64,000 nucleotides of DNA, from the NCBI GenBank assembly GCA_045534635.1, contig JAZSKB010000038.1, positions 7,778 through 71,777 on the forward strand, written 5' to 3'. Shown here in pieces: positions 376-12,397 of this stretch (positions are counted from its first letter, which is position 1; each line of letters starts with the position of its first letter). Made by a program: the position numbers and the translations under genes. The notes under the pieces were generated by a model that worked only from the letters and a program-made list of their open reading frames with translations, was not told the origin of the DNA and ran no database searches. This DNA comes from Bacteroidales bacterium (GTDB lineage Bacteria; Bacteroidota; Bacteroidia; Bacteroidales; WCHB1-69).

Positions 376-1503
376 CTAAATCTTTTTTGCTATATTTATA
401 ATTGTTTCAAATGTCTTTTTTGCGGTATTAATATCTTCCACATCAAAATCTTCGTATAAAATATAGTCTTCGTGTTTGGTTAAAACTTTTCGAATTTCTT
501 TAATTTCATAAATTTTGCTGCTTTTTAAATTTATATCTCTCTCTTGTTTTTCTAAACAACAGCTCAAAGTTTCATAAGTATCATTCAAACTTATATATAA
601 CCAATAATCTTTTTTATTTATTTTCAAATCCTTGACTAAAATATCAATATCTTTTTTTGTAACATTATGATTTTGCTCATTTTCAGGAATCCATTTTTTA
701 ACTTCATCTTTTAGTCTCTCTCGTATGAAATTAATGAATTCATCATTAAAATTTTGTACTTTATTTTGTTCTACTATGAGTGTTTTTAAGTCATTTCCAT
801 ATTTTTCTTCAAAAAAAACTTTCATGTTTTTATCCATTTCATCTCCTTTTTTTAATATTTCTAAATAATTTACATACTGTTCTAATGCACTTCTCAATTC
901 AATTTCTTTGCACGGCAAGATGTCGAGTTCTTTTTTTAACCACAACAAAATGTCATACATATAGGAAAGATTTAAAAAGCGAGCAGAATATTCGCTTTCC
1001 TCTCTTTTTGAACTCCATGTATCACTACTTGGACTTTGATAATATTTAGTCAGATAAACTATATAAATATCGGCTTTACTATATTCTTTTTTCTGAATTC
1101 TGTCAATGTATCTTGATAGTTGTTTATCTTGATCAACTGCCCCACAGATCTTATTCTCAATTATTATTGCACTATCTTTGTTCATAATCAGAACATCAAT
1201 TCTGTCTTTTTCCTGCGTGATTTCTGGAGAGACAATATTTATTTTTGAAAAATCACAACTAGAACCTTCCTTATCATTAATATACTCCAACAACGACTCC
1301 AAAAACACATATTTCCTTTCTTGGTCTCTATATTGCAGGATTTTAGCTAAAATACGGCTATGTGCATTCTCATTTATATGCAACTCCTCAATAATATTGA
1401 GATGGTAGGGTTGTTTCTCTTTTACTTCGTCCAATTTTTGACAGTAATCCTCCGCAAATTGGAGAATCTGTGCGGCTGTAATATCTTGCTGTTCTTTACT
1501 CAT
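376..1503 (-). CDS. PD-(D/E)XK nuclease family protein (PDDEXK_4-like).
   Basis: N-terminal ENAHSRILAKILQY motif, then RIDVLIMNKDSAIIIENK (D...ExK core) and QLSRYID. Paralog of the next gene. Confidence 0.7.
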   Translation of the reverse strand: MSKEQQDITAAQILQFAEDYCQKLDEVKEKQPYHLNIIEELHINENAHSRILAKILQYRDQERKYVFLESLLEYINDKEGSSCDFSKINIVSPEITQEKDRIDVLIMNKDSAIIIENKICGAVDQDKQLSRYIDRIQKKEYSKADIYIVYLTKYYQSPSSDTWSSKREESEYSARFLNLSYMYDILLWLKKELDILPCKEIELRSALEQYVNYLEILKKGDEMDKNMKVFFEEKYGNDLKTLIVEQNKVQNFNDEFINFIRERLKDEVKKWIPENEQNHNVTKKDIDILVKDLKINKKDYWLYISLNDTYETLSCCLEKQERDINLKSSKIYEIKEIRKVLTKHEDYILYEDFDVEDINTAKKTFETIINIAKKI

Positions 1504-1552: not shown

Positions 1553-2749
1553 TCATTTTCTTAAAGACTTCAATTCTTCAAGTATTTTTTCTATAAATTC
1601 ATATAATTTGTCCTCTTCAAAAAAACTAAAATGTTTTTCACATCGGAGTTTATCTTCTTCCTTGATAACAAAACCTTTTAGTGAAGTTGGACCTTCTATA
1701 AAATTTGAAAATAATTCTTCTGATATTTTGTCATAAGATTTATCATTTGGTGCCCAAAATTGTACACTATATCCATCTTCGAAGCACCAAATATCCATTT
1801 TGTAATATACATTATTAACTATAGCTCCCTCAAAAACAGCATCATTGTTTGAATAAATCCATATTTTAGAGAAAGGGGAGCAATTTCCACTAAACTTTTC
1901 TTGAATGCGAAAGGCTAAATACTTTGGTATTTCATTCATCATATTCCTGATTGATTGTGCTGTTTGCAGATTGTCTTTCTGCAATAATTCTTTGTAAAAT
2001 TTTTCTAAAACAATATTATCCATAATATTACGATTTAATTTCTTTATTAAGATTGTATATTGTCGCAATGTAGAAACAACATCTATATCATTTGACAATA
2101 GGATAGATGGTTGTAACCAATCCTTAACCAAATTGATTTCTCCAGATTTATCATAAGCCGGTATTATAACCAGTAGTGGATTCACATTGTCTTTATCTTC
2201 TTGAGTCCAATCATCTATACTTGGCTTTTTATGAATATCTAATGGAATATACACGATTACATCAACAATATATGAGTTTTGAGTAACATAGTCATAATAA
2301 CGAGGTATTTGCCGTTGCATATCAACAGCATTGTTGATTTTATTCTCAATAATAATAGCCTTTTTAGTGGTATTAGATTTTATAAGTATATCAATCTTCC
2401 CCTCTTCTCGAGTAGCTTCAACATCTTGATAATCATTAGAATCTATATTTTTCGCTTTTTTATTGAGCATTTCAATGAATGTGTTAAGATATACACTTCC
2501 TCCTCCATGTTTTTCTTTAGGATTTAAGAAGAAAGAAATAATATCTGAATGAAAGTTCTCCCTATAATACAAATCGGAGACGAGGTGAAAGACATTAAAT
2601 ATTTCCTTTTGATCGTCTTCCTTTGATTTGATATAATCTTTGCTAATAGAGGAACACTTATTCAATAAGCCTGACACAATATCAATATGTTTATTGATTT
2701 GTAGTTGCCATGTCTTTAATAATTCTATTTCTTTTTCCATTGAAATCAT
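1553..2749 (-). CDS. PD-(D/E)XK nuclease family protein (PDDEXK_4-like), divergent tandem paralog.
   Basis: RENFHSDIISFFLNPKEKHGGG, then KIDILIKSNTTKKAIIIENK and QIPRYYDY. The motif order is the same as in 376..1503. Confidence 0.7.
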   Translation of the reverse strand: MISMEKEIELLKTWQLQINKHIDIVSGLLNKCSSISKDYIKSKEDDQKEIFNVFHLVSDLYYRENFHSDIISFFLNPKEKHGGGSVYLNTFIEMLNKKAKNIDSNDYQDVEATREEGKIDILIKSNTTKKAIIIENKINNAVDMQRQIPRYYDYVTQNSYIVDVIVYIPLDIHKKPSIDDWTQEDKDNVNPLLVIIPAYDKSGEINLVKDWLQPSILLSNDIDVVSTLRQYTILIKKLNRNIMDNIVLEKFYKELLQKDNLQTAQSIRNMMNEIPKYLAFRIQEKFSGNCSPFSKIWIYSNNDAVFEGAIVNNVYYKMDIWCFEDGYSVQFWAPNDKSYDKISEELFSNFIEGPTSLKGFVIKEEDKLRCEKHFSFFEEDKLYEFIEKILEELKSLRK

Positions 2750-2912: not shown

Positions 2913-3521
2913 TTAATTTTTGTTATTAGGAAGAAAGTACAAGCTTTCATGGGATTTTTCAAGTATGCGATGAACTCCGTGGGTGATTACGTCGGGTTCA
3001 TCGTTAAAATGTACCGGAAGATGGGTTATTTGGGTTATTTTATTTCCCATGTTTTTAAATCGGTCGTCGTATCTGGTCATATAGATGCCGTTTCCGTCAA
3101 TAATGTCTGCAGAAACTTGTAGCGGAGCTTCTTCCAAAAAACGGAGAATGTCGTTTGCTATTGATTCGGCTTTAAGATTGTTGCCGATCATGTCACATAT
3201 AATTCCGCCTAAAGCAACAATAGCTGCTTCGTAAAAGTCTTGTTCAATGTTCACTATCAAATTGCCTTCCGCTATGTCAGCCACACTCAATTCCATACCA
3301 TAGGCTATCGCCATGATGGTGTGTAAGATGTTACAGTGCTCGTAGCCTGAAATTTCTGCAGCTTTTCTTAAATGGCATACATCTTCTTTACAAAAATTTA
3401 TCGAAATGCAAATGATGACACCATTCTCGCGTTCAATTACATGTATTTGTTTTTTAATATCCTTATTAACATCGTTTAAATGTTGAAAGAATAAATCTAA
3501 TTTTTGATTTTTGTTGTCCAT
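2913..3521 (-). CDS. Hypothetical protein, distal partner of the AAA+ ATPase.
   Basis: 202-aa ORF lying 39 nt downstream of the AAA+ gene on the same strand. I recognise no family. There is a weak actin/Hsp70-fold-like stretch, RKAAEISGYEHCNILHTIMAIAYGME. Confidence 0.55.
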   Translation of the reverse strand: MDNKNQKLDLFFQHLNDVNKDIKKQIHVIERENGVIICISINFCKEDVCHLRKAAEISGYEHCNILHTIMAIAYGMELSVADIAEGNLIVNIEQDFYEAAIVALGGIICDMIGNNLKAESIANDILRFLEEAPLQVSADIIDGNGIYMTRYDDRFKNMGNKITQITHLPVHFNDEPDVITHGVHRILEKSHESLYFLPNNKN

Positions 3522-3560: not shown

Positions 3561-5210
3561 CTAAAATCCTATTCTTCGTTTTTCCGATTTGTCTAAACAT
3601 TCGTTGTTGCAATGCTCGATTAATTTTTCCAAAGAAACGGTTTTCTCACCTTGCAACACGGTGTCTATGGTATAATGCCGGGCGACATTTTCTATCTGTC
3701 CGCCGCTAAAGTCGTATTTCTCCGCCAAAATTTTTATGTCGGCTTCCGGCAAATCGGGAAGCATGGATTGCCATATTTGCATTCTGGCCTTCAAGGCAGG
3801 CTTGTTGAATTTGATTTTATAGAGAAACCTGCGTTCAAAAGCCCTGTCCATGTTTTGGGCGAGATTGGTGGTGGCAATGAGTATGCCGTTGAGCGTTTCC
3901 ATCTCTTGCAGGATGATGTTCTGAATAGCATTCTCCATCTTGTCAACCGCATCTGAGGCACTTTCTTTACGCATGCCGATAATGGCATCTGCCTCGTTGA
4001 AAAGCAAAATGGGCGTCATATCAGATTTTTCCACATTCGAGCGGTACTTGTCGAAAATCTGCTTGATGTTTTTTTCACTTTCTCCCACCCACATACTCTT
4101 GATTTTGGAAATATTCACCTGCATGATGTCGCGTCCTGCTTGGCGGGCCAATTGCAAGACGGTTTCCGTCTTGCCGGTGCCGGGTGCACCATAAAACAAG
4201 CAGGAAAAACCGCTATTGAAACCTTTTTCCTTTAATTGATGACAAATGTGGTGATAATTGTCTCCTTCCAAAAGTTGGCCAAGATTACTAATCTGATTGG
4301 CTATCTCTTGATCATAGAAAAGCTGTTTTTTCTGAATATCCTCATAACGAAGAAATTGCTGACGATCGTTAGACATCATATTTAATTGTAGTTCAGAAAA
4401 AAGTGTCTGTTTGGCCGCCCATGTCAGACAAAATGAATTAGCGTCAGCAAAACCATTGTTATTGACATATTCTATCAATTTGGCATCTTGCAAGGGATGT
4501 ATATTAAATTTAAGTTTTGCTTTAAGTGTTCTAAATTCACTTTTTTTGTCGTAAAAGAATTCCAAGTCATAATAATGGACATTGTCATCGCTATTGTTAA
4601 CAAATAAGTGGGCAAACAATACCAACAGGTTTTCTTCGGCTTTATTTAATTTGAAACTTTTCAATTTTTGAACAAAAACCAAATGTTTGTTTTTCTCCAA
4701 CAATTCCTGTATGCGATTGGAAGCTAAGGCTGTAGTCGTTTCCTCATCTTCCCGCAACACCATGATTTCTCCTATCCTATTGAACAACTCATCACAACTA
4801 AGATTTGAATAATCCTTTGGCGTGTATTTCTCATTGTTTTTAAAAGCCTCTATCACATCCCACGGAACACGGTAACTCAAACCCATATTAGAGCGTTTTC
4901 CACAAATTAAACCTTTGCTTTCCAATACGTCAATGTCTTTCATAAACCGAATGATGCGAATGGTACTGCATTTGAGTTGCTTGGCAAAATCACTTATGCA
5001 AATGCTTGCATCACTGCTGTTATCCATAAAAAGTGCCATCATAAGGCTTTGCTCCTTGGTAATATCCAGTTGGGAGGAAAGATATTTCAATGGTTTTGAC
5101 AGTTTTTTAAAAAACGCTGCATCAAACTGCGAAGTTTTGGAAAATTCTACAATTTCTTCCACAGCGCTTAACATATCCATTTTTTGTTTTGCATTTTTCT
5201 TCGTTTCCAT
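3561..5210 (-). CDS. AAA+ ATPase (classic CDC48/FtsH-type module) with an N-terminal wHTH-like region.
   Basis: Walker A is GAPGTGKT and Walker B is ILLFNEADAI. Sensor and arginine-finger region: ATTNLAQNMDRAFERRF. The N-terminal part contains STIRIIRFMKDIDVLESKGLI. Confidence 0.85.
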   Translation of the reverse strand: METKKNAKQKMDMLSAVEEIVEFSKTSQFDAAFFKKLSKPLKYLSSQLDITKEQSLMMALFMDNSSDASICISDFAKQLKCSTIRIIRFMKDIDVLESKGLICGKRSNMGLSYRVPWDVIEAFKNNEKYTPKDYSNLSCDELFNRIGEIMVLREDEETTTALASNRIQELLEKNKHLVFVQKLKSFKLNKAEENLLVLFAHLFVNNSDDNVHYYDLEFFYDKKSEFRTLKAKLKFNIHPLQDAKLIEYVNNNGFADANSFCLTWAAKQTLFSELQLNMMSNDRQQFLRYEDIQKKQLFYDQEIANQISNLGQLLEGDNYHHICHQLKEKGFNSGFSCLFYGAPGTGKTETVLQLARQAGRDIMQVNISKIKSMWVGESEKNIKQIFDKYRSNVEKSDMTPILLFNEADAIIGMRKESASDAVDKMENAIQNIILQEMETLNGILIATTNLAQNMDRAFERRFLYKIKFNKPALKARMQIWQSMLPDLPEADIKILAEKYDFSGGQIENVARHYTIDTVLQGEKTVSLEKLIEHCNNECLDKSEKRRIGF

Positions 5211-5231: not shown

Positions 5232-5275
5232 AAACGCTGCAAAATTAGCACATGACTATGCAAAATTTTGGCATA
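5232..5275 (-). promoter_or_regulatory. Conserved promoter cassette, copy 1 (upstream of the AAA+ gene).
   Basis: GCTGCAAAATTAG...ACTATGCAAAA.TTTGGCATA. It contains CAAAATTA (5240-5247), which is TAATTTTG on the minus strand, about 30 nt before the ATG at 5210. Confidence 0.5.
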
Positions 5276-6275: not shown

Positions 6276-6320
6276 TTACGGCTGCAAAATTAGAAACCGA
6301 CTATGCAAAAGTATGGCATA
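6276..6320 (-). promoter_or_regulatory. Conserved promoter cassette, copy 2 (upstream of SLOG-exonuclease).
   Basis: TTACGGCTGCAAAATTAGAAACCGACTATGCAAAAGTATGGCATA, matching copy 3 at 42/45. The -7 box is at 6285-6292. Confidence 0.55.
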
Positions 6321-7066: not shown

Positions 7067-7111
7067 TTACGGCTGCAAAATTAGAAACCAATTATGCAAA
7101 AGTGTGGCATA
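7067..7111 (-). promoter_or_regulatory. Conserved promoter cassette, copy 3.
   Basis: TTACGGCTGCAAAATTAGAAACCAATTATGCAAAAGTGTGGCATA, with the -7 box at 7076-7083. Confidence 0.55.
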
Positions 7112-7198: not shown

Positions 7199-7771
7199 TT
7201 AATCTATCGGATCGCTGCAATATTCCCGCCGTTTGCAGGTTTTGCAGTGCAGTCCCATCCATACCTCGTCGTATTGCTTTATGGCTTGTTCCACTATTTC
7301 GGGCTCATCGGTAAGGATGCCCGCTTCGAAATTGCGGGTATTTTCTCCTTTCATGCCGATGCCGGCACCGGTAAGGTTGGCACTTCCGATGTAAACTTCT
7401 TTACAATCAAAGACTATCATTTTAAAATGAACTCTTGGACAGAGCACTCGCTCCAAGCGGTCGAACAGCACAGGGTATTTGTCAAAATCCTCTTGGAAAG
7501 CCGGACCCGGCTCCTTGGCGTGAATGAGCCTTACCTCCACACCCTTTCGGATAAGTTGGGCAATGATAGCCAAAAACGGCTTTTTCTCTCCTCCTGCCTC
7601 CACATACAAGTCCTTGATATCGGCAGTGCCAATCCATAGCGTCTGCTTTACTGACTTTACCCGCGAAAGCACTTCTTTGTAATGGTCAATATTGGAGATG
7701 TAGGTGAGCATAGGGAAGTTATTCACAAATCTTGTTTTGACAATCATCGTAGCAAGGTTTGTTTTGTTCAT
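7199..7771 (-). CDS. Single-HKD phospholipase D-superfamily nuclease (Nuc-like) with a C-terminal Cys cluster.
   Basis: HFKMIVFDCKEVYIGSANLT fits HxK(x)4D(x)6GSxN. The tail is HCKTCKRREYC. The start is ambiguous: 7771 overlaps the upstream gene by 53 nt, and 7711 (MLTYISN) leaves a 7-nt gap. Confidence 0.8.
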   Translation of the reverse strand: MNKTNLATMIVKTRFVNNFPMLTYISNIDHYKEVLSRVKSVKQTLWIGTADIKDLYVEAGGEKKPFLAIIAQLIRKGVEVRLIHAKEPGPAFQEDFDKYPVLFDRLERVLCPRVHFKMIVFDCKEVYIGSANLTGAGIGMKGENTRNFEAGILTDEPEIVEQAIKQYDEVWMGLHCKTCKRREYCSDPID

Positions 7772-10223
7772 CTGCTTCGACTTGGTGGATTAGGCAGTCA
7801 AGCATTTTCGTAAAAATATCGGATGTGGTATTTTCATCTACTCGAAAGCAATAATATTCGTCCTCATCAGTACCTTTATCTGTTGTTTTTGAGTGTTTTT
7901 GGTACTCCTCCCAATTATCTGTCATCAAATAAATATCCAACTCTTTTGCATTCGGACTGCCCCACCATTGGAAGAAGTGATTGTTATATTTAAAGTTAAC
8001 ATTCTTGTTCTCACATTTATAGTATCGACACCCCTCTATCTTATTCTTCTCGCTATAGTCAATAGTATTATCGTATTTCAACTGTGCTAAAATTGGATTT
8101 AGTACGATCTGAGATGATGGATACCCACTTTGCCAAATAGCATGAAAACCATGGTATGTACTTCGAATCCACGCACCTGACATTTTATCGCAAACGTAAT
8201 CCATCAATCCATCTTCAACGATGTTTTTTATATATTGATCGTTTTCGTTTATTTCGGCTATGAACTTACTCGTTACATCATCAGTTATCTCCGTTCCCAT
8301 TATGGCATCAACTGCAGCTCTCCAATTGCTAGAGGTGAGTATGCGTTTCCACCGATTTGCATCATTTGAAAATTCAAAATGCCACCAAATCTTATTTCCG
8401 AAATCATCACAATTTGCCAGTAATGATTTCATTAATAAGGCATTGGACTTGAATTTTTCTTTTCCATCTTTTGCTCCATCTTTGTCAAAATACTCACGTG
8501 CATTTTTCCATTTAGTATCAAAGTGCTCCCAATCATCTCCAATTTTTTCTTTTGTAAACAAGCATCGTATTGCACCTTTGAAGAAGGCGTATCTCTCAGC
8601 CTCAATGATAATTTCTTCCCAAGTTTTTTCATCCGTGCGTTGTCCTCCGTTAAGGATTTGTGTGGCTTTTGCGATTTCTTCTGCTACTTGCTCTTGGGCG
8701 TGGTATTGATTTCCTAATTCAAAGGATTCAAACACATTTGCCAAAGCATTGTAGATTGTATGGCTTTTTGCTGAGAGTTTTTCTATCAGCCTTAATGCAG
8801 CGTGATATGTATCAGAACTGTCTATTGTTGAATTTTCAATGATGTTCCAAACTATACGCATCCATTGTGACAATGTTGTTTTAGTTTCTCTGTTCTCAAC
8901 ACTAAAATATCTCAACAATGCATAAAATGCTACACGAGAAGGATAGGTTTCGCTGTTTTCTCGATTTCTATCTCCTTCAAATAGTTTCCATTTGATTTCA
9001 ATGTCTCTATTCCAAACAGCCTGACAATCTTCTTCGATATTGTTTTGCTTGCTTAACGTATCCCAAATATTGAATATTGGAGATAGACAATCTTCAACGC
9101 CGCATTTACCAATCACATATTCATAAATATCAAAAGAGACAAAATTATCCTTTGTCGGATACAATGGCATTTCTTCTTGAATCCTTTTATTAAATTCATC
9201 CTGCTCATCCTGCTCTTTCTTCTGTTCATCATTCAAAGAGTTTCGTTCTTTTTCTGTTTTGGAATTATTCTCATACCAACACCGCCAGACATTCATAAAA
9301 TGACGGTTGAAGAAACTCATCATTAGGGTATCGGGCAAATTCTTCTCTTTTTTATCTTTGTTTGCGACTTCCCAAAATAAGTCTAGCCAAGTCCCATCAA
9401 TTCCCGTATATTTTTGTAATGCCTTGTCATATTCACCTTTCAATCTACATAGTAAAACCCTGTATTTTCCTTGTAATTCAACAGAAAGATTTTCAGATTT
9501 TGATTTTTCTTCAAGATACTGCTCTAAACTTGCCTTGAAGTTTTCAAAAGGAGTCAATGTTTTCCCACGAGCATTCATCTTCACATATGTCTCATCAGAC
9601 ATTTTATGCTCGCCCATATCAACAAAATGAAACGTAATCGGACAGTTGCAACCACTTGTTAGTTTCTCGGCAAATGTTTTGAAATCGGTTTCGTTTTTCA
9701 TTTGGCAATGAATTTCATCAAGCATTGTAAGCATACCCATTATAGTTGGGTCTTTTTCCCAGTCAGGATAGAACCACGATTGTTTTTTTATATTGTCCGT
9801 TAATGAATTGCCAGATATAATTTTCTCTTGCACCAATTTCTCACAAAATTCCCGTGAAGACTGCCGTGTGGCATAAGAAAACCTGCCGAGTATGTCTCCG
9901 CAAGAGCAATTGTCTTTATGGTTGCAACCTGAATCAGACTGACATTTTTCAAAAATATATTTATGAAAAAGAAAGAGTGTTGTTAGACGTTGCTGTCCAT
10001 CAAATGGAATGAACTTGTTGTTGTCCACTCGCCCGTAAACAAAGTCAAAAAACAAAGGTTTGTTTTCTTCTACTGCTACTGCCTTTATCATATTATCAAC
10101 AAGAGATTTCCTTACATCCGCAGCTTTAGGATTATTGTGCCCTTGAGCATAATCTCTTTGTATGATTGGTATTTCTATCTGATATTTGCTAATCAGTTGA
10201 TAGAATGAATATATGTCGTTCAT
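7719..10223 (-). CDS. DUF262 (GmrS/ParB-like NTPase) protein with a long C-terminal region and no recognisable DUF1524/His-Me nuclease.
   Basis: IPIIQRDYAQG and DGQQRLTTLFLF are near the N-terminus, followed by a Cys-rich insert, CQSDSGCNHKDNCSCG. I see no (E/D)HI...N...N motif in the remaining ~600 aa. Confidence 0.75.
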   Translation of the reverse strand: MNDIYSFYQLISKYQIEIPIIQRDYAQGHNNPKAADVRKSLVDNMIKAVAVEENKPLFFDFVYGRVDNNKFIPFDGQQRLTTLFLFHKYIFEKCQSDSGCNHKDNCSCGDILGRFSYATRQSSREFCEKLVQEKIISGNSLTDNIKKQSWFYPDWEKDPTIMGMLTMLDEIHCQMKNETDFKTFAEKLTSGCNCPITFHFVDMGEHKMSDETYVKMNARGKTLTPFENFKASLEQYLEEKSKSENLSVELQGKYRVLLCRLKGEYDKALQKYTGIDGTWLDLFWEVANKDKKEKNLPDTLMMSFFNRHFMNVWRCWYENNSKTEKERNSLNDEQKKEQDEQDEFNKRIQEEMPLYPTKDNFVSFDIYEYVIGKCGVEDCLSPIFNIWDTLSKQNNIEEDCQAVWNRDIEIKWKLFEGDRNRENSETYPSRVAFYALLRYFSVENRETKTTLSQWMRIVWNIIENSTIDSSDTYHAALRLIEKLSAKSHTIYNALANVFESFELGNQYHAQEQVAEEIAKATQILNGGQRTDEKTWEEIIIEAERYAFFKGAIRCLFTKEKIGDDWEHFDTKWKNAREYFDKDGAKDGKEKFKSNALLMKSLLANCDDFGNKIWWHFEFSNDANRWKRILTSSNWRAAVDAIMGTEITDDVTSKFIAEINENDQYIKNIVEDGLMDYVCDKMSGAWIRSTYHGFHAIWQSGYPSSQIVLNPILAQLKYDNTIDYSEKNKIEGCRYYKCENKNVNFKYNNHFFQWWGSPNAKELDIYLMTDNWEEYQKHSKTTDKGTDEDEYYCFRVDENTTSDIFTKMLDCLIHQVEADEQNKPCYDDCQNKICE

Positions 10224-12061
10224 TTTTGTCCTCCTTTCAGTTTAATACCATATTGGAATTCTTCGTTTTCATTTTGCAGAATTGGTTCAAGTTGCAAGTA
10301 TGCAGCCACAACTTTTGTCATCGCAGTGACGTACTCTTTTCCTGCCTGCTCATCCCATAGCAAGGGATTGGTTGAATTAGGCGAATAGTGTTTGAAAAAT
10401 ACGTTTCTTGTGCATATCGGCACAAACAACGATTCTCTTTCAACGTTTTCGTATTCAGCCAATTTTGCTCTTTTTTCAGGATATAGTTTATTGTTGAAAG
10501 CTGCGTTTTTGTCGCCTTGCAAAAGTGCCATATTTGTTAGGTGGTCATCTTTTTCAAACTCAGAAGTGAAAGTTATACTTCCATCGTCATTTGTATGTGA
10601 CTGAACATTCTTCCCCATAAACGCTCCCATAATAGCTTTGTATGTGTTGTCATCTATACTTTCACTTGTTTCTTTGTCTTTCAAGTAGTTATTGAAGTCA
10701 TCTATTCCTTCTACAGAAATTTTTTCCAAATACCCTTTTATTTGGTCAAATTGCTCTTTGTTCCAATTCGCTTTTTTCTCATTTTGGGCGTGAATATGTT
10801 CCAATGACCATTTCTTTTTTGCCGCTTCAAAGTGCTTGTCAAACGGATAACGAGACAGTTCGCTTATTTGATTTTGAGTGGTTGCAAGATTAAACAACAA
10901 TAAGACATTGTGAATTTCATTGTTGTTTTTGTTATATTCCCAATCCGAAAAATTCTTTAGAGTTATTTCCTTCCCATCTTTTTGCTTAACACCAATACCA
11001 ATTGATTGCTGACAACGCTTTATCAAAGAAGATAAAAACTCATCTTTGGGCTTATCTGCTTCGCATAATAATTTCCGAAGCGTTGTCATTTTGTTTTCCC
11101 CGTTTAGATTCATCAAATAACCTACATAGTGGTATAATTGTCGGTTATCGTACCACGATTTCATTATTCTGAAGAATTTTTGAATGTTACTCCATTGCTT
11201 TTCCCAACCTTCTTTGATATGTTCAGAATAAGTCGAAAAAATGAAGTAATCATTTTGTTTTAACTCATTTTCAATGTCGTATTTGAATTCATTTTTATCA
11301 TTCTTCTCGCAACTCAGAACCATTTCCAAAAGGAAATCAATTCGTGTGCAGTTGAATCTCGCATCTTCTGGTTTGGGGTTTATAAAGTACCAAAACGAAT
11401 TGTCGTGAAGTGTTTGCTCCATCCTGTCCCATTCGCCAGCCATTTCCAATTGTTTGAGACGCAGAGCATCAGAATTCAATCCGTTGAAATTGTCATCTTT
11501 AAGTAAAAGGGCTTTCACCAATTCGGCATTACTCAATGAAATTTTGCCAGAATTAAGGCGTTTGAAAACTTCGTAGGCATTATCTTGGGTTTCATACCAT
11601 ATTACTTTGCAATTTTCTTTGAGTTTTTGTGCAAGATTTTCTTTGTTCCCAGTCCATTCTTTTATAGTTTTCTTTGCTCCAATCATAAAATCATAATCAA
11701 TGTTTTCAGCATTTTGGTCATCATTTTTAATCTTTTGCAGAAAAGTTTCGCTACCAGGACGCGTTTGGTATTTTAGAGATAATGCACTTTCAGGCTCCAG
11801 CAGATTTAGTATTATGAAAATTGTAGTCAATCTCTGCTGCCCGTCAATCACCTCATACCAATCTTTTTTTTCAATTTCTTTTTCTAAACGAGAATCCGTT
11901 TCGTCCATTTTTCTAACAACCAAAGGTTGCAAACAATACCAAGTGTCTTCTTTACCTTCATCTTTCTCTGGTTTGAACTCATTCACGTCATTTAACAAGT
12001 CCTTCACCTGCTGCTCTGTCCACCTATATCCTCGCTGGTAACTTGGTATAAAGAACTTCAT
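10220..12061 (-). CDS. GmrSD-family type IV restriction-like protein (DUF262 + DUF1524).
   Basis: N-terminal FIPSYQRGYRW and DGQQRLTT. C-terminal WSLEHIHAQN and NMALLQGDKNAAFNNK (His-Me finger). Its stop overlaps the start of the next gene as ATGA at 10220-10223. Confidence 0.85.
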   Translation of the reverse strand: MKFFIPSYQRGYRWTEQQVKDLLNDVNEFKPEKDEGKEDTWYCLQPLVVRKMDETDSRLEKEIEKKDWYEVIDGQQRLTTIFIILNLLEPESALSLKYQTRPGSETFLQKIKNDDQNAENIDYDFMIGAKKTIKEWTGNKENLAQKLKENCKVIWYETQDNAYEVFKRLNSGKISLSNAELVKALLLKDDNFNGLNSDALRLKQLEMAGEWDRMEQTLHDNSFWYFINPKPEDARFNCTRIDFLLEMVLSCEKNDKNEFKYDIENELKQNDYFIFSTYSEHIKEGWEKQWSNIQKFFRIMKSWYDNRQLYHYVGYLMNLNGENKMTTLRKLLCEADKPKDEFLSSLIKRCQQSIGIGVKQKDGKEITLKNFSDWEYNKNNNEIHNVLLLFNLATTQNQISELSRYPFDKHFEAAKKKWSLEHIHAQNEKKANWNKEQFDQIKGYLEKISVEGIDDFNNYLKDKETSESIDDNTYKAIMGAFMGKNVQSHTNDDGSITFTSEFEKDDHLTNMALLQGDKNAAFNNKLYPEKRAKLAEYENVERESLFVPICTRNVFFKHYSPNSTNPLLWDEQAGKEYVTAMTKVVAAYLQLEPILQNENEEFQYGIKLKGGQK

Positions 12062-12157
12062 CCCAAGAAGATTTTAGTTCAATCTTATTTTCTGCCATAT
12101 AGTATAATAACTTTTCAAATTCAAAATCACTTGTAAAATTATATTTCACAAACGTTG

Positions 12158-12165
12158 CAAAGATA
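12158..12165 (-). promoter_or_regulatory. -7 box (TATCTTTG on the minus strand) for the DUF262 operon.
   Basis: The plus strand reads CAAAGATA, about 95 nt upstream of the ATG at 12061. Confidence 0.4.
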
Positions 12166-12397
12166 CAACTTTTTTTTATACAAAATCATAAAGTGTTGAT
12201 TTTTTTTTGTTACGTTTTTTATAATAAAAATAAAGCTTTTGTAAGTATCAGAAAACATCTGAAATTGTTTTATTTTTTAGATATAATTTTTGTTACTAAA
12301 AAAAATTATAAAAAAATAATTTATTAAAGATAATTATGAAATAAAAATGTTATCTTTGCAGATATTTATAAAACATAACAAGTAATAAATAATATTT

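What the first reader, a model, noticed from the sequence alone, without database searches (positions are those of the whole stretch)
7199..12061. Coupled GmrSD-like + DUF262-only + single-HKD PLD nuclease operon: candidate three-component modification-dependent defence system
Three minus-strand genes share one promoter (-7 box at 12158-12165). Gene A (613 aa) is a complete GmrSD architecture, with DUF262 motifs QRGYRW and DGQQRLTT plus DUF1524 motifs LEHIHAQN...NAAFNN. Gene B (834 aa) starts inside A's stop codon (ATGA at 10220-10223) and has the DUF262 motifs QRDYAQG and DGQQRLTT. It then has about 600 aa with no nuclease motif I can recognise. Gene C follows within -53 to +7 nt and is a minimal Nuc-like PLD nuclease (HFKMIVFD......GSAN) with a Cys-rich tail. 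My reading is that B and C form a split sensor-NTPase plus trans-acting nuclease in which PLD replaces the usual His-Me finger. That pair would sit next to a canonical fused GmrSD, perhaps with a different modified-base specificity. I do not recall a named system with this composition. One caveat is composition: spot GC counts are about 55% for the PLD gene (7321-7380) and about 37% for gene B (9001-9060). The PLD gene may therefore belong to the downstream GC-rich block, and the junction at 7711-7771 may be a recombination seam.
Basis: partly seen in the sequence, partly recalled or inferred. Interest (0 to 1): 0.75.

Follow-up and report, generated by a model that had tools for sequence, protein, structure and literature searches.

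The report
GrwAB-type restriction pair plus PLD cassette
The first two genes are a Bacteroidales member of the known two-protein GrwAB restriction system, which cuts phage DNA carrying modified bases, and the small PLD nuclease behind them is a separate, widely shared add-on gene rather than the partner of gene B.

Summary
All three minus-strand ORFs, their motifs, the ATGA overlap and the upstream TAnnTTTG box are real. The proposed wiring (A alone, B+C as a split enzyme) is not supported.

- **A and B are the unit.** An A-like DUF262+DUF1524 gene sits directly before the B-like gene in 76 of 76 genomes with upstream sequence, across many phyla.
- **The pair is already named.** I recovered Vibrio cholerae GrwA and GrwB and confirmed them by the published mutated residues (R81, H431, N521, N530; R86). 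Window A matches GrwA (33% identity, full length, E 2e-92). Window B matches GrwB (30% identity, E 1e-55). The gene order is the same.
- **B has no detectable nuclease** by Pfam, profile-profile comparison or Foldseek.
- **The PLD is an accessory.** It follows B in only about 5 of 80 B-centred loci. Elsewhere the same highly conserved PLD (dN/dS about 0.05) sits tightly behind many other genes, including other GmrSD types, McrC and PD-(D/E)XK nucleases. It follows DUF262 genes more often than chance would give (15/47 against 7%).
- **Gene A may be damaged.** An 11-nt deletion removes its ancestral start codon.

Verdict: a new member of a known kind. The PLD association is a modest open lead.

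The parts
12158..12165 (-). Bacteroidetes-type -7 promoter box TATCTTTG upstream of gene A
   Evidence: Read directly. It is the only TAnnTTTG on the minus strand in the 12062-12397 gap. This is a consensus match only; there is no transcript data.
12024..12098 (-). Remnant of the ancestral 5' end of gene A. ATG 12098-12096 opens a 24-codon out-of-frame ORF (MAENKIELKSSWDEVLYTKLPARI*), created by an 11-nt deletion relative to relatives.
   Evidence: Relatives read MAENxIxLKSVSELLGMKFFIPSYQRGYRW in one frame. The window lacks about 11 nt after AAATC.
10220..12061 (-). Gene A, a GrwA-like subunit: DUF262 NTPase (YQRGYRW, DGQQR with R77), helical linker, and DUF1524 His-Me nuclease (E421-H422, N510, N519). 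It is N-terminally truncated in this genome.
   Evidence: It shares 32.6% identity over 613 columns with V. cholerae GrwA, E 2e-92.
7719..10223 (-). Gene B, a GrwB-like subunit: atypical DUF262 (IQRDYAQG, DGQQR with R79, KMNARGK), a conserved helical middle region (W454, R456, N460, E515, E516, K519, E543), and a variable beta-rich C-terminal region from about residue 570 to 834. No nuclease domain was detected.
   Evidence: It shares 30.2% identity over 572 columns with V. cholerae GrwB, E 1e-55.
7199..7711 (-). PLD cassette: a 170-aa single-HKD phospholipase-D-family nuclease with four invariant Cys. It starts 7 nt after B's stop and has no promoter box in between. It is an accessory gene, not part of the conserved core.
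7072..7111 (-). First of three copies of a 40-nt promoter-like element (TATGCCAnAnTTTTGCATAnTnnnTnnCTAATTTTGCAGC). It marks the start of the next transcription unit (the 217-aa unknown gene) and so the 3' boundary of the A-B-PLD unit.
   Evidence: 3 matches against 0 expected. The other copies are at 6281-6320 and 5236-5275. The element contains TTTG and TAATTTTG boxes.

Best explanation
**Core system.** Genes A and B encode a Bacteroidales member of the GrwAB family, a two-protein GmrSD-like type IV (modification-dependent) restriction system.

**Mechanism, by analogy with V. cholerae GrwAB.** The two proteins act as a complex. Both DUF262 domains bind and hydrolyse NTP and sense hypermodified phage DNA. 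In GrwAB the targets are 7-deazaguanine and sugar-modified hydroxymethylcytosine. The only nuclease is the His-Me (DUF1524) domain of A. B's long C-terminal region is conserved in its helical middle part and variable at the end. I infer that it is a regulatory or specificity module.

**The PLD gene.** It is a separate, very strongly conserved cassette. Here it is co-transcribed as the last gene of the unit. Across gut and rumen bacteria the same cassette is attached to the 3' end of many different, mostly type IV-like, defence genes. It is probably a cytoplasmic homodimeric DNA nuclease with a Cys4 metal site, and it is not required for the A-B mechanism.

**Shown.** Homology of A to GrwA and of B to GrwB, obligate A-B pairing, absence of a detectable nuclease in B, promiscuity of the PLD, and purifying selection on it.

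**Inferred.** Complex formation, target modifications, the role of B's C-terminus, the PLD's substrate, and whether the system works in this genome given A's damaged 5' end.
For: **Pairing.**
- An A-like gene lies directly upstream of the B-like gene in 76/76 species-representative genomes with enough upstream sequence. These span Bacteroidota, Spirochaetota, Bacillota, Verrucomicrobiota, Campylobacterota and others. In 75 of the 76, the A hit reaches the DUF1524 region.
- The pair also occurs on a Pseudoalteromonas plasmid, embedded as hsdM-hsdS-[A][B]-hsdR.
- One natural A-B fusion protein of 1411 aa exists.

**Identity with GrwAB.**
- The V. cholerae locus next to the VSP-II integrase, rpoD and dnaG encodes a 603-aa and an 821-aa protein. 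They carry exactly the published mutated residues: R81, H431, N521 and N530 in the first, R86 in the second (PMC12137116).
- Window A hits GrwA at E 2e-92. Window B hits GrwB at E 1e-55. The cross-hits are at motif level only.

**No nuclease in B.**
- Pfam finds only GmrSD_N in 58 diverse family members.
- hhalign of the B family against the A family aligns DUF262 only.
- Foldseek against PDB gives nothing below E 0.3.
- PDB sequence profiles hit DUF262 only.
- PADLOC and NCBIfam give no hit.

**PLD as accessory.**
- It follows B directly in 5 of 80 B-centred loci and is present somewhere in about 9-10.
- Among close relatives of B it is present in some (86% and 54% identity) and absent in others (74%, 66%, 66%, 55%).
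- In a PLD-centred sample, the 56 tightly coupled upstream genes include 20 DUF262 proteins (12 with DUF1524), 7 PDDEXK_4, 3 McrC, Mrr, AAA_14/DUF4143, Fic and RT.
- Some copies have their own TAnnTTTG box, and 20 of 81 carry a conserved hairpin just after the stop.
- Median pS is 0.80, pN is 0.11 and dN/dS is about 0.05.
Against: - No experiment exists on this locus or on any Bacteroidales homologue. The target modifications are extrapolated from a 30-33% identical system.
- B's C-terminal 270 aa do not align with GrwB in pairwise searches, so the specificity may differ.
- Gene A has lost its ancestral start codon. The system may be impaired here, or the deletion may be an assembly error.
- The PLD is not randomly placed. 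DUF262-family genes are 7.3% of genes in PLD loci but 32% (15/47) of its immediate upstream neighbours (binomial p 7e-7, not corrected for relatedness).
- The B-PLD junction is tight (7 nt) and conserved in the closest relative. The adjacency recurs in a Kiritimatiellia genome with a diverged PLD.
- A functional link between the PLD and GmrSD-type systems is therefore not excluded.
Confidence: 0.8

Rival explanations
1. Three-component variant. GrwAB-like A+B is the sensor and primary nuclease. The co-transcribed PLD is a genuine accessory that works with it, and with other GmrSD-type or type IV enzymes, in trans. For example, it could extend limited cleavage or nicking into degradation, or provide a back-up nuclease against phage inhibitors.
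For: - PLD placement right after DUF262-family genes is enriched: 15/47 against a 7.3% background, or 20/56 by Pfam.
- Gaps are tight or overlapping (-4 to about +30 nt), usually with no promoter.
- The A-B-PLD order occurs in 15 loci whose A and B are only 27-65% identical to the window's.
- The order is conserved in the closest relative.
- PLD domains are established effector modules of modification-dependent enzymes such as SauUSI, BfiI and the END nucleases (PMC12191111).
Against: - About 90% of GrwAB-like pairs lack the PLD, including the experimentally active V. cholerae system.
- About two thirds of PLD copies follow unrelated genes or stand behind their own promoter.
- The very low dN/dS is unlike typical fast-evolving defence partners.
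- The enrichment test is not corrected for shared ancestry or for island composition.
Confidence: 0.15
2. A is a self-sufficient fused GmrSD. B (sensor NTPase) and the PLD (nuclease) form a second, split enzyme in which the PLD replaces the His-Me finger.
For: - B lacks any detectable nuclease.
- The PLD starts 7 nt after B.
- A has the complete single-chain GmrSD domain set.
Against: - B is never found without A directly upstream (76/76) and is usually found without the PLD.
- An A-B fusion exists.
- In GrwAB neither protein works alone, and GrwA nuclease mutants abolish defence (PMC12137116).
- The PLD also follows enzymes with their own nuclease.
Confidence: 0.03
3. Decaying locus. The A-B pair is inactive in this genome because A lost its start and 16 conserved N-terminal residues. 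The PLD and downstream genes are the only functional parts.
For: - The window has an 11-nt deletion relative to relatives.
- A related locus has a fragmented A gene of 75 + 342 aa.
Against: - The remaining 613-codon ORF and the 834-codon B ORF are intact.
- Both are 86.5% identical at DNA level to an intact relative.
- An in-frame Met precedes the first DUF262 motif.
- The deletion could be an assembly error.
Confidence: 0.2

Closest known systems
[quoted passage not shown]
   Same: - Two co-oriented, overlapping genes in the same order.
- The first is DUF262 + helical linker + DUF1524 His-Me.
- The second is DUF262 + a long C-terminus of unknown domains with no nuclease.
- Reciprocal sequence homology: A-GrwA at 33% and B-GrwB at 30%.
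- Same catalytic and NTPase residues and the same H...N(x8)N spacing.
   Different: - Only about 30% identity.
- B's last ~270 residues do not align pairwise with GrwB.
- The host is a low-GC Bacteroidales bacterium, in a co-directional defence array next to radA rather than in VSP-II.
- A PLD gene follows where V. cholerae has the independent Shedu gene VcSduA.
- A's 5' end is damaged here.
- No functional data.
[quoted passage not shown]
   Same: A two-protein GmrSD-like system made of one DUF262-only protein and one DUF262+DUF1524 protein. The ORFs overlap and both proteins are required.
   Different: - Opposite gene order: the DUF262-only protein comes first.
- Only generic DUF262 similarity to the first 400 aa of TgvA and TgvB (A: E about 1e-11 to 1e-13; B: E > 1e-3).
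- A true TgvAB-like pair sits beside a GrwAB-like pair in locus L011, so the two are separate lineages.
Single-chain GmrSD / BrxU / SspE / HEC-06
   Same: Gene A has their DUF262-linker-DUF1524 architecture and motifs. The nearest solved structures (DndI 9jfl, SspE 6jiv) match through DUF262. PADLOC gives weak N-terminal hits to Orf5, HEC-06 and SspE.
   Different: Those enzymes act alone, as homodimers. The A family is always encoded with a B partner, and its characterised homologue GrwA is inactive alone.
Small HKD nucleases: Nuc/NucT, DISARM DrmC, and PLD effector domains of SauUSI, BfiI and END nucleases
   Same: A single HKD motif in a protein of about 170 aa, so a homodimeric active site is expected, as in Nuc. 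It lies in a defence-island context. It gives weak profile hits to DrmC, NucT and PLD3.
   Different: - Scores are far below family cut-offs: DrmC 36 against 133 bits, NucT 21 against 297 bits.
- No DrmA, DrmB or methylase genes nearby.
- No signal peptide is apparent, unlike Nuc.
- It is not fused to a sensor domain.
- It carries four invariant Cys not described for those families.
- It is extremely conserved and sits behind many unrelated genes.

Membership tests
GrwAB | Two adjacent co-oriented genes. The first encodes DUF262 + DUF1524. The second encodes DUF262 + a long C-terminus without a nuclease. | tested here: met
   The ATGA overlap is at 10220-10223.
GrwAB | Sequence homology of each protein to V. 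cholerae GrwA and GrwB respectively | tested here: met
   The V. cholerae pair was recovered and verified by residues R81/H431/N521/N530 and R86. A-GrwA: 32.6% over 613 columns, E 2e-92. B-GrwB: 30.2% over 572 columns, E 1e-55. Cross-hits are motif-level only.
GrwAB | QR, DGQQR and FxxxN-type DUF262 motifs in both proteins, and His-Me H...N...N in the first | tested here: met
   A: Q9-R10, D73-R77, F166...N170, H422, N510, N519. B: Q22-R23, D75-R79, Y213...N217.
GrwAB | Both proteins required, with protection against phages carrying 7-deazaguanine or sugar-hmC DNA | not testable with these tools
   Needs plaque assays. Obligate gene pairing (76/76) and one natural fusion are consistent with a complex.
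GrwAB | Intact full-length first subunit | tested here: not met
   An 11-nt deletion removes the ancestral start and 16 conserved residues of A in this window. It may be an assembly error.
TgvAB | DUF262-only gene first and DUF262+DUF1524 gene second, with homology to TgvA and TgvB | tested here: not met
   The order is reversed. There is only generic DUF262 similarity to TgvA/TgvB residues 1-400 from Table S5 of PMC11411939. No A- or B-type motif occurs in the held part of that table.
Single-chain GmrSD (BrxU/SspE type) for gene B | C-terminal DUF1524 His-Me nuclease | tested here: not met
DISARM (DrmC) for the PLD | Score above the DrmC model cut-off, with neighbouring drmA, drmB and a methylase | tested here: not met
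   NCBIfam gives 35.9 bits against a cut-off of 133. The neighbours are GrwAB-like, an unknown gene, SLOG, DEDDh and AAA.
PLD superfamily nuclease (Nuc-like) | HxK(x4)D(x6)GSxN motif in a single-domain protein | tested here: met
   PLDc_2 at 1.9e-12 and PLDc at 2.9e-05. H95, K97, D102, G109, S110 and N112 are invariant. The fold itself could not be confirmed because the model had pLDDT 45.

The most novel reading that the evidence does not exclude
The 170-aa Cys4 PLD is a previously undescribed, very abundant plug-in nuclease cassette of gut and rumen bacteria. It is recruited preferentially to the 3' end of GmrSD-type two-gene systems (GrwAB-like, TgvAB-like) and other type IV operons. It co-operates with them in trans, often inside a recurring WYL regulator - DEDDh exonuclease - [variable cargo] - PLD frame. 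That would make it a shared accessory module for modification-dependent restriction.
Probability: 0.15. Interest if true: 0.6.

Novelty: new member of a known kind. Interest (0 to 1): 0.3.

Why it matters
- **Wider range for GrwAB.** It places the recently described GrwAB two-protein type IV system, known so far from Vibrio cholerae, in gut and rumen Bacteroidales and many other phyla.
- **Support for a complex.** The two genes are an obligate pair family-wide, and one fusion protein exists. This supports the idea that GmrSD-like enzymes can work as hetero-complexes, whose mechanism is still unknown.
- **Annotation.** Large 'DUF262 domain-containing' pairs can now be annotated as GrwAB-type.
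- **An untested lead.** The small, extremely conserved PLD gene that tends to follow such systems is an untested candidate accessory nuclease.

Tried and rejected
1. **Cryptic DUF1524 or other nuclease in B.** The sequence 'QYHAQEQ' looked like A's 'HIHAQN', but it lies in a helix. Neither hhalign, Pfam on 58 members nor Foldseek supports a nuclease.
2. **TgvAB membership.** Rejected on gene order and sequence.
3. **PADLOC and NCBIfam naming.** No hit for B, and only weak N-terminal hits for A.
4. **GrwAB sequences from the paper's Supplementary Table 6.** The stored file is cut before that table. I recovered the V. cholerae proteins by another route: a Pseudoalteromonas plasmid homologue, then a homology search, then cluster members, then the encoding contig.
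5. **Residue spacing as a GrwA fingerprint.** It varies too much within the family to be decisive.
6. **AlphaFold model of the PLD, to test the Cys4 cluster.** The model had pLDDT 45 because the alignment was too uniform. It was not usable, so no fold search was run.
7. **A conserved recombination or attC-like site at the cargo-PLD junction.** There is none; homology stops at the PLD start codon.
8. **The PLD as a recently spread DNA cassette or homologous-recombination anchor.** Rejected: nucleotide identity is only about 73% and synonymous sites are saturated.
9. **The 40-nt promoter-like repeat as a shared island feature.** It is absent from the 167 related loci that were scanned.
10. **Intrinsic terminators between A and the AAA gene on the minus strand.** None found.
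11. **One call failed on a coordinate error**.
Full report
**1. Observation**

The three minus-strand ORFs exist as described: A at 10220-12061 (613 aa), B at 7719-10223 (834 aa) and C at 7199-7771.
- Pfam finds GmrSD_N (DUF262) and a just-sub-threshold GmrSD_C (DUF1524) in A. It finds GmrSD_N only in B, and PLDc_2/PLDc in C.
- A and B overlap by ATGA.
- Homologues of C start at MLTYISN. The likely start is therefore ATG 7711, 7 nt after B's stop.
- A TATCTTTG box (TAnnTTTG, the Bacteroidetes -7 consensus) lies at 12158-12165. It is the only one on that strand in the 336-nt upstream gap, and there is none between the three genes.
- No terminator-like hairpin lies on the minus strand within the unit.
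The PLD has GC 0.478 and GC3 0.55, against 0.356 for A and B.

**2. What is conserved elsewhere: A with B**

B has hundreds of full-length relatives. A motif scan of one genome per species returned at least 585 relatives, and I examined the best 80.
- In all 76 loci with enough upstream sequence, an A-like gene lies directly before the B-like gene on the same strand. In 75 of them the A hit extends into the DUF1524 region.
- The hosts include Bacteroidota, Spirochaetota, Bacillota, Verrucomicrobiota, Campylobacterota, Elusimicrobiota and others.
- tblastn adds plasmids of Pseudoalteromonas, Paraburkholderia, Bartonella, Bacillus and Rhodococcus.
- On the Pseudoalteromonas plasmid the pair is embedded in a type I RM operon, as hsdM-hsdS-[A][B]-hsdR.
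- B's non-DUF262 part (residues 240-834) defines a family of 738 representative proteins at 50% clustering. Almost all are 740-870 aa long and match at the same position.
- One representative (1411 aa) is an in-frame A-B fusion with a linker of about 30 aa. It comes from a single 4.9-kb contig.

**3. B has no detectable nuclease**
- Pfam finds only GmrSD_N in 58 diverse family members.
- Profile-profile comparison of the B family with the A family aligns the DUF262 domain only.
- PADLOC and NCBIfam give nothing for B.
- PDB sequence profiles hit only DUF262 proteins.
- An AlphaFold2 model (pLDDT 73, confident from about residue 230 to 830, poor in the DUF262 part) found nothing in the PDB below E 0.3.
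- Family-wide conserved residues outside DUF262 are W454, R456, N460, E515, E516, K519 and E543, in a helical region.
- The last ~270 residues are beta-rich and poorly conserved.

**4. Comparison with known systems**

The literature describes two two-protein GmrSD-like systems, both from V. cholerae.
- **TgvAB** has the DUF262-only protein first (PMC11411939, PMC11014532).
- **GrwAB** has GrwA (DUF262+DUF1524) first. [quoted passage not shown]
  - Both proteins are required.
  - GrwA R81A, H431A, N521A and N530A, and GrwB R86A, abolish defence against phages with 7-deazaguanine or sugar-modified hmC DNA (PMC12137116, PMC12409362).

*TgvAB is rejected.* The first 400 aa of TgvA and TgvB (Table S5 of PMC11411939) show only generic DUF262 similarity to A and almost none to B. 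Locus L011 carries a TgvAB-like pair next to an A-B pair.

*GrwAB is confirmed.* The paper's hit table is not held, so I recovered the proteins indirectly.
- A homology search with the Pseudoalteromonas B-like protein and a cluster look-up gave an 821-aa V. cholerae protein (AFC57365.1 and others, seen on 330 contigs).
- Its locus encodes a 603-aa DUF262+DUF1524 protein, then the 821-aa protein, then a 651-aa protein, a transposase, an integrase, rpoD and dnaG. This is the VSP-II position described for grwAB-VcSduA.
- The 603-aa protein has R81, H431, N521 and N530, and the 821-aa protein has R86, exactly as published.
- Window A aligns to this GrwA over its full length (32.6% identity, E 2e-92). 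Window B aligns to GrwB over residues 16-568 (30.2% identity, E 1e-55). The cross-comparisons are motif-level only.

The A-B pair is therefore a member of the GrwAB family.

**5. The PLD**

*It is not specific to B.*
- Close homologues of C occur in only about 9-10 of the 80 B-centred loci. They follow B directly in 5.
- Among close relatives of B, the PLD follows in the 86% and 54% identical ones. It is three genes further on in a 68% relative. It is absent in the 74%, 66%, 66% and 55% relatives.

*It is abundant and strongly constrained.*
- At least 8000 90%-identity clusters exist, and the best 120 are all 81-96% identical and 170 aa long.
- Synonymous sites are saturated (median pS 0.80) with pN 0.11, giving dN/dS about 0.05. 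Nucleotide identity is only about 73%.

*Its upstream neighbours vary.* In 80 PLD-centred metagenome loci the gene is nearly always tightly coupled (-4 to about +30 nt) to a same-strand upstream gene, but that gene differs from locus to locus. Of 56 upstream genes:
- 20 are DUF262 proteins, 12 of them with DUF1524;
- 7 are PDDEXK_4;
- 3 are McrC;
- the rest include Mrr, AAA_14/DUF4143, Fic/RhuM, RT and others.

*Junctions.*
- Homology ends at the PLD start codon, and no junction motif is shared.
- A handful of copies have their own TAnnTTTG box.
- 20 of 81 copies have a conserved GACCTCTGCC...GGCAGAGGTC hairpin followed by a T-run just after the stop. The window's copy does not.

*Placement is still not random.*
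- DUF262-family genes are 7.3% of genes in these loci but 32% of immediate upstream neighbours (15/47, binomial p 7e-7, uncorrected for relatedness).
- A-B-PLD order occurs in 15 loci whose A and B are 27-65% identical to the window's, while the PLD stays at about 80-86%.
- Because the PLD evolves so slowly, this discordance does not by itself prove repeated transfer.

*Closest relative.* The window and its closest relative are collinear over A-B-PLD at 86.5% DNA identity.

**6. Mechanism proposed**
- A and B form a GrwAB-type hetero-complex. Both DUF262 NTPase sites are needed. A's His-Me domain (H422, N510, N519) cuts hypermodified phage DNA. B's helical middle and variable C-terminal domains modulate recognition. 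This is inferred by homology with GrwAB genetics.
- The PLD is a separate cytoplasmic single-HKD nuclease with four invariant Cys (C91, C156, C159, C165), probably a metal site. It is expected to dimerise like Nuc; that expectation rests on established knowledge of single-HKD enzymes and was not tested here.
- In this window the PLD is expressed as the last gene of the unit. The next gene has its own promoter-like element.
- Whether the PLD co-operates with GmrSD-type systems remains open. I give about 0.15 to a true accessory role.

**7. Caveat for this genome**

An 11-nt deletion puts A's ancestral start (ATG 12098) out of frame. The remaining ORF starts at an internal Met and lacks the conserved 'LKSVSELL' segment. 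GrwA is essential in GrwAB, so the system may be impaired here, unless the deletion is an assembly error.

**8. Context**

Reading along the minus strand, the locus lies in a co-directional array:
- A, B and the PLD;
- a 217-aa unknown gene;
- a YspA/SLOG protein;
- a DEDDh exonuclease;
- an IetA-like AAA ATPase with a small MreB-like partner;
- two PDDEXK_4 paralogues.

radA lies on the other side. These genes recur in shuffled order in the related loci. They often fall in a frame of WYL regulator, DEDDh exonuclease, variable cargo and PLD, followed by HAD, PHP-polymerase-like and MoxR-VWA-metallopeptidase genes.

**9. Verdict**

Novelty: a new member of a known kind (GrwAB family), with an open lead on the PLD cassette.

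Noticed in passing
window 12024-12098 (-): An 11-nt deletion relative to close relatives (L001, L006) frameshifts the ancestral 5' end of gene A. It leaves a 24-codon out-of-frame ORF, and A restarts at an internal Met without 16 conserved residues.
   Followed up: yes
window 5236-5275, 6281-6320, 7072-7111 (-): Three copies of a 40-nt promoter-like element (TATGCCAnAnTTTTGCATAnTnnnTnnCTAATTTTGCAGC, containing TTTG and TAATTTTG boxes) lie upstream of the DEDDh exonuclease, the SLOG gene and the 217-aa unknown gene. Zero are expected by chance, and the element is absent from 167 related loci.
   Followed up: partly
related loci, e.g. L119, L124, L138, L094, L125, L015, L036, L048: A recurring frame of WYL/WCX (BrxR-like) regulator - DEDDh exonuclease - [1-3 variable defence genes] - PLD. 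Both upstream genes are present in 16 of 30 PLD-centred loci with at least 5 kb upstream. WYL-EXO-A-B is contiguous in 9 of 80 B-centred genomes, including Bacteroides and Flavobacterium.
   Followed up: partly
L168:295-4530: A 1411-aa natural in-frame fusion of a GrwA-like and a GrwB-like protein with a linker of about 30 aa. It comes from a single metagenome contig and could be a Rosetta-stone hint of a complex.
   Followed up: partly
L175:3125-7451 (Pseudoalteromonas sp. JSTW plasmid NZ_CP058973.1): A GrwAB-like pair embedded between hsdS and hsdR of a type I RM operon. This is the same embedding described for TgvAB.
   Followed up: partly
L011:12714-16259: A TgvAB-like pair lies about 3.4 kb downstream of a GrwAB-like pair in the same Bacteroidales locus, so the two two-gene GmrSD-like lineages coexist.
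   Followed up: partly
window 7719-10223 (-), B residues 94-194: Close relatives of B (at least 50% identity) carry a Cys-rich insert inside the DUF262 domain (C94, C100, C106, C108, C127, C192, C194). Apart from C127, these Cys are not conserved in the wider GrwB family. The region is poorly modelled by AlphaFold2.
   Followed up: partly
related loci, within 120 nt after the PLD stop (e.g. L095, L100, L106, L112, L116): A conserved hairpin GACCTCTGCCAC...TGGCAGAGGTC, followed by a T-run and a CTTTGCA box, occurs in 20 of 81 loci. It looks like a terminator plus promoter travelling with the PLD. It is absent in the window.
   Followed up: partly
window 3561-5210 and 2913-3521 (-): A 549-aa AAA ATPase resembles the anti-phage ATPase IetA (PADLOC 2e-32, below the NCBIfam cut-off). 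It is followed by a 202-aa protein with an MreB/actin-like C-terminal fragment instead of the IetS protease.
   Followed up: no
window 376-1503 and 1553-2749 (-): Two tandem PDDEXK_4 paralogues. Relatives of these are among the genes found directly upstream of the PLD in other loci.
   Followed up: no
L171:3-1267: In a 74%-identical relative of B, the upstream A gene is broken into 75-aa and 342-aa pieces, so decay of the A subunit occurs elsewhere too.
   Followed up: no
PDB entries listed as 20yv/20yw: An 818-aa 'DUF262 domain-containing protein' has been solved. It matches the A and B families only through DUF262. Its identity is unknown to me.
   Followed up: no
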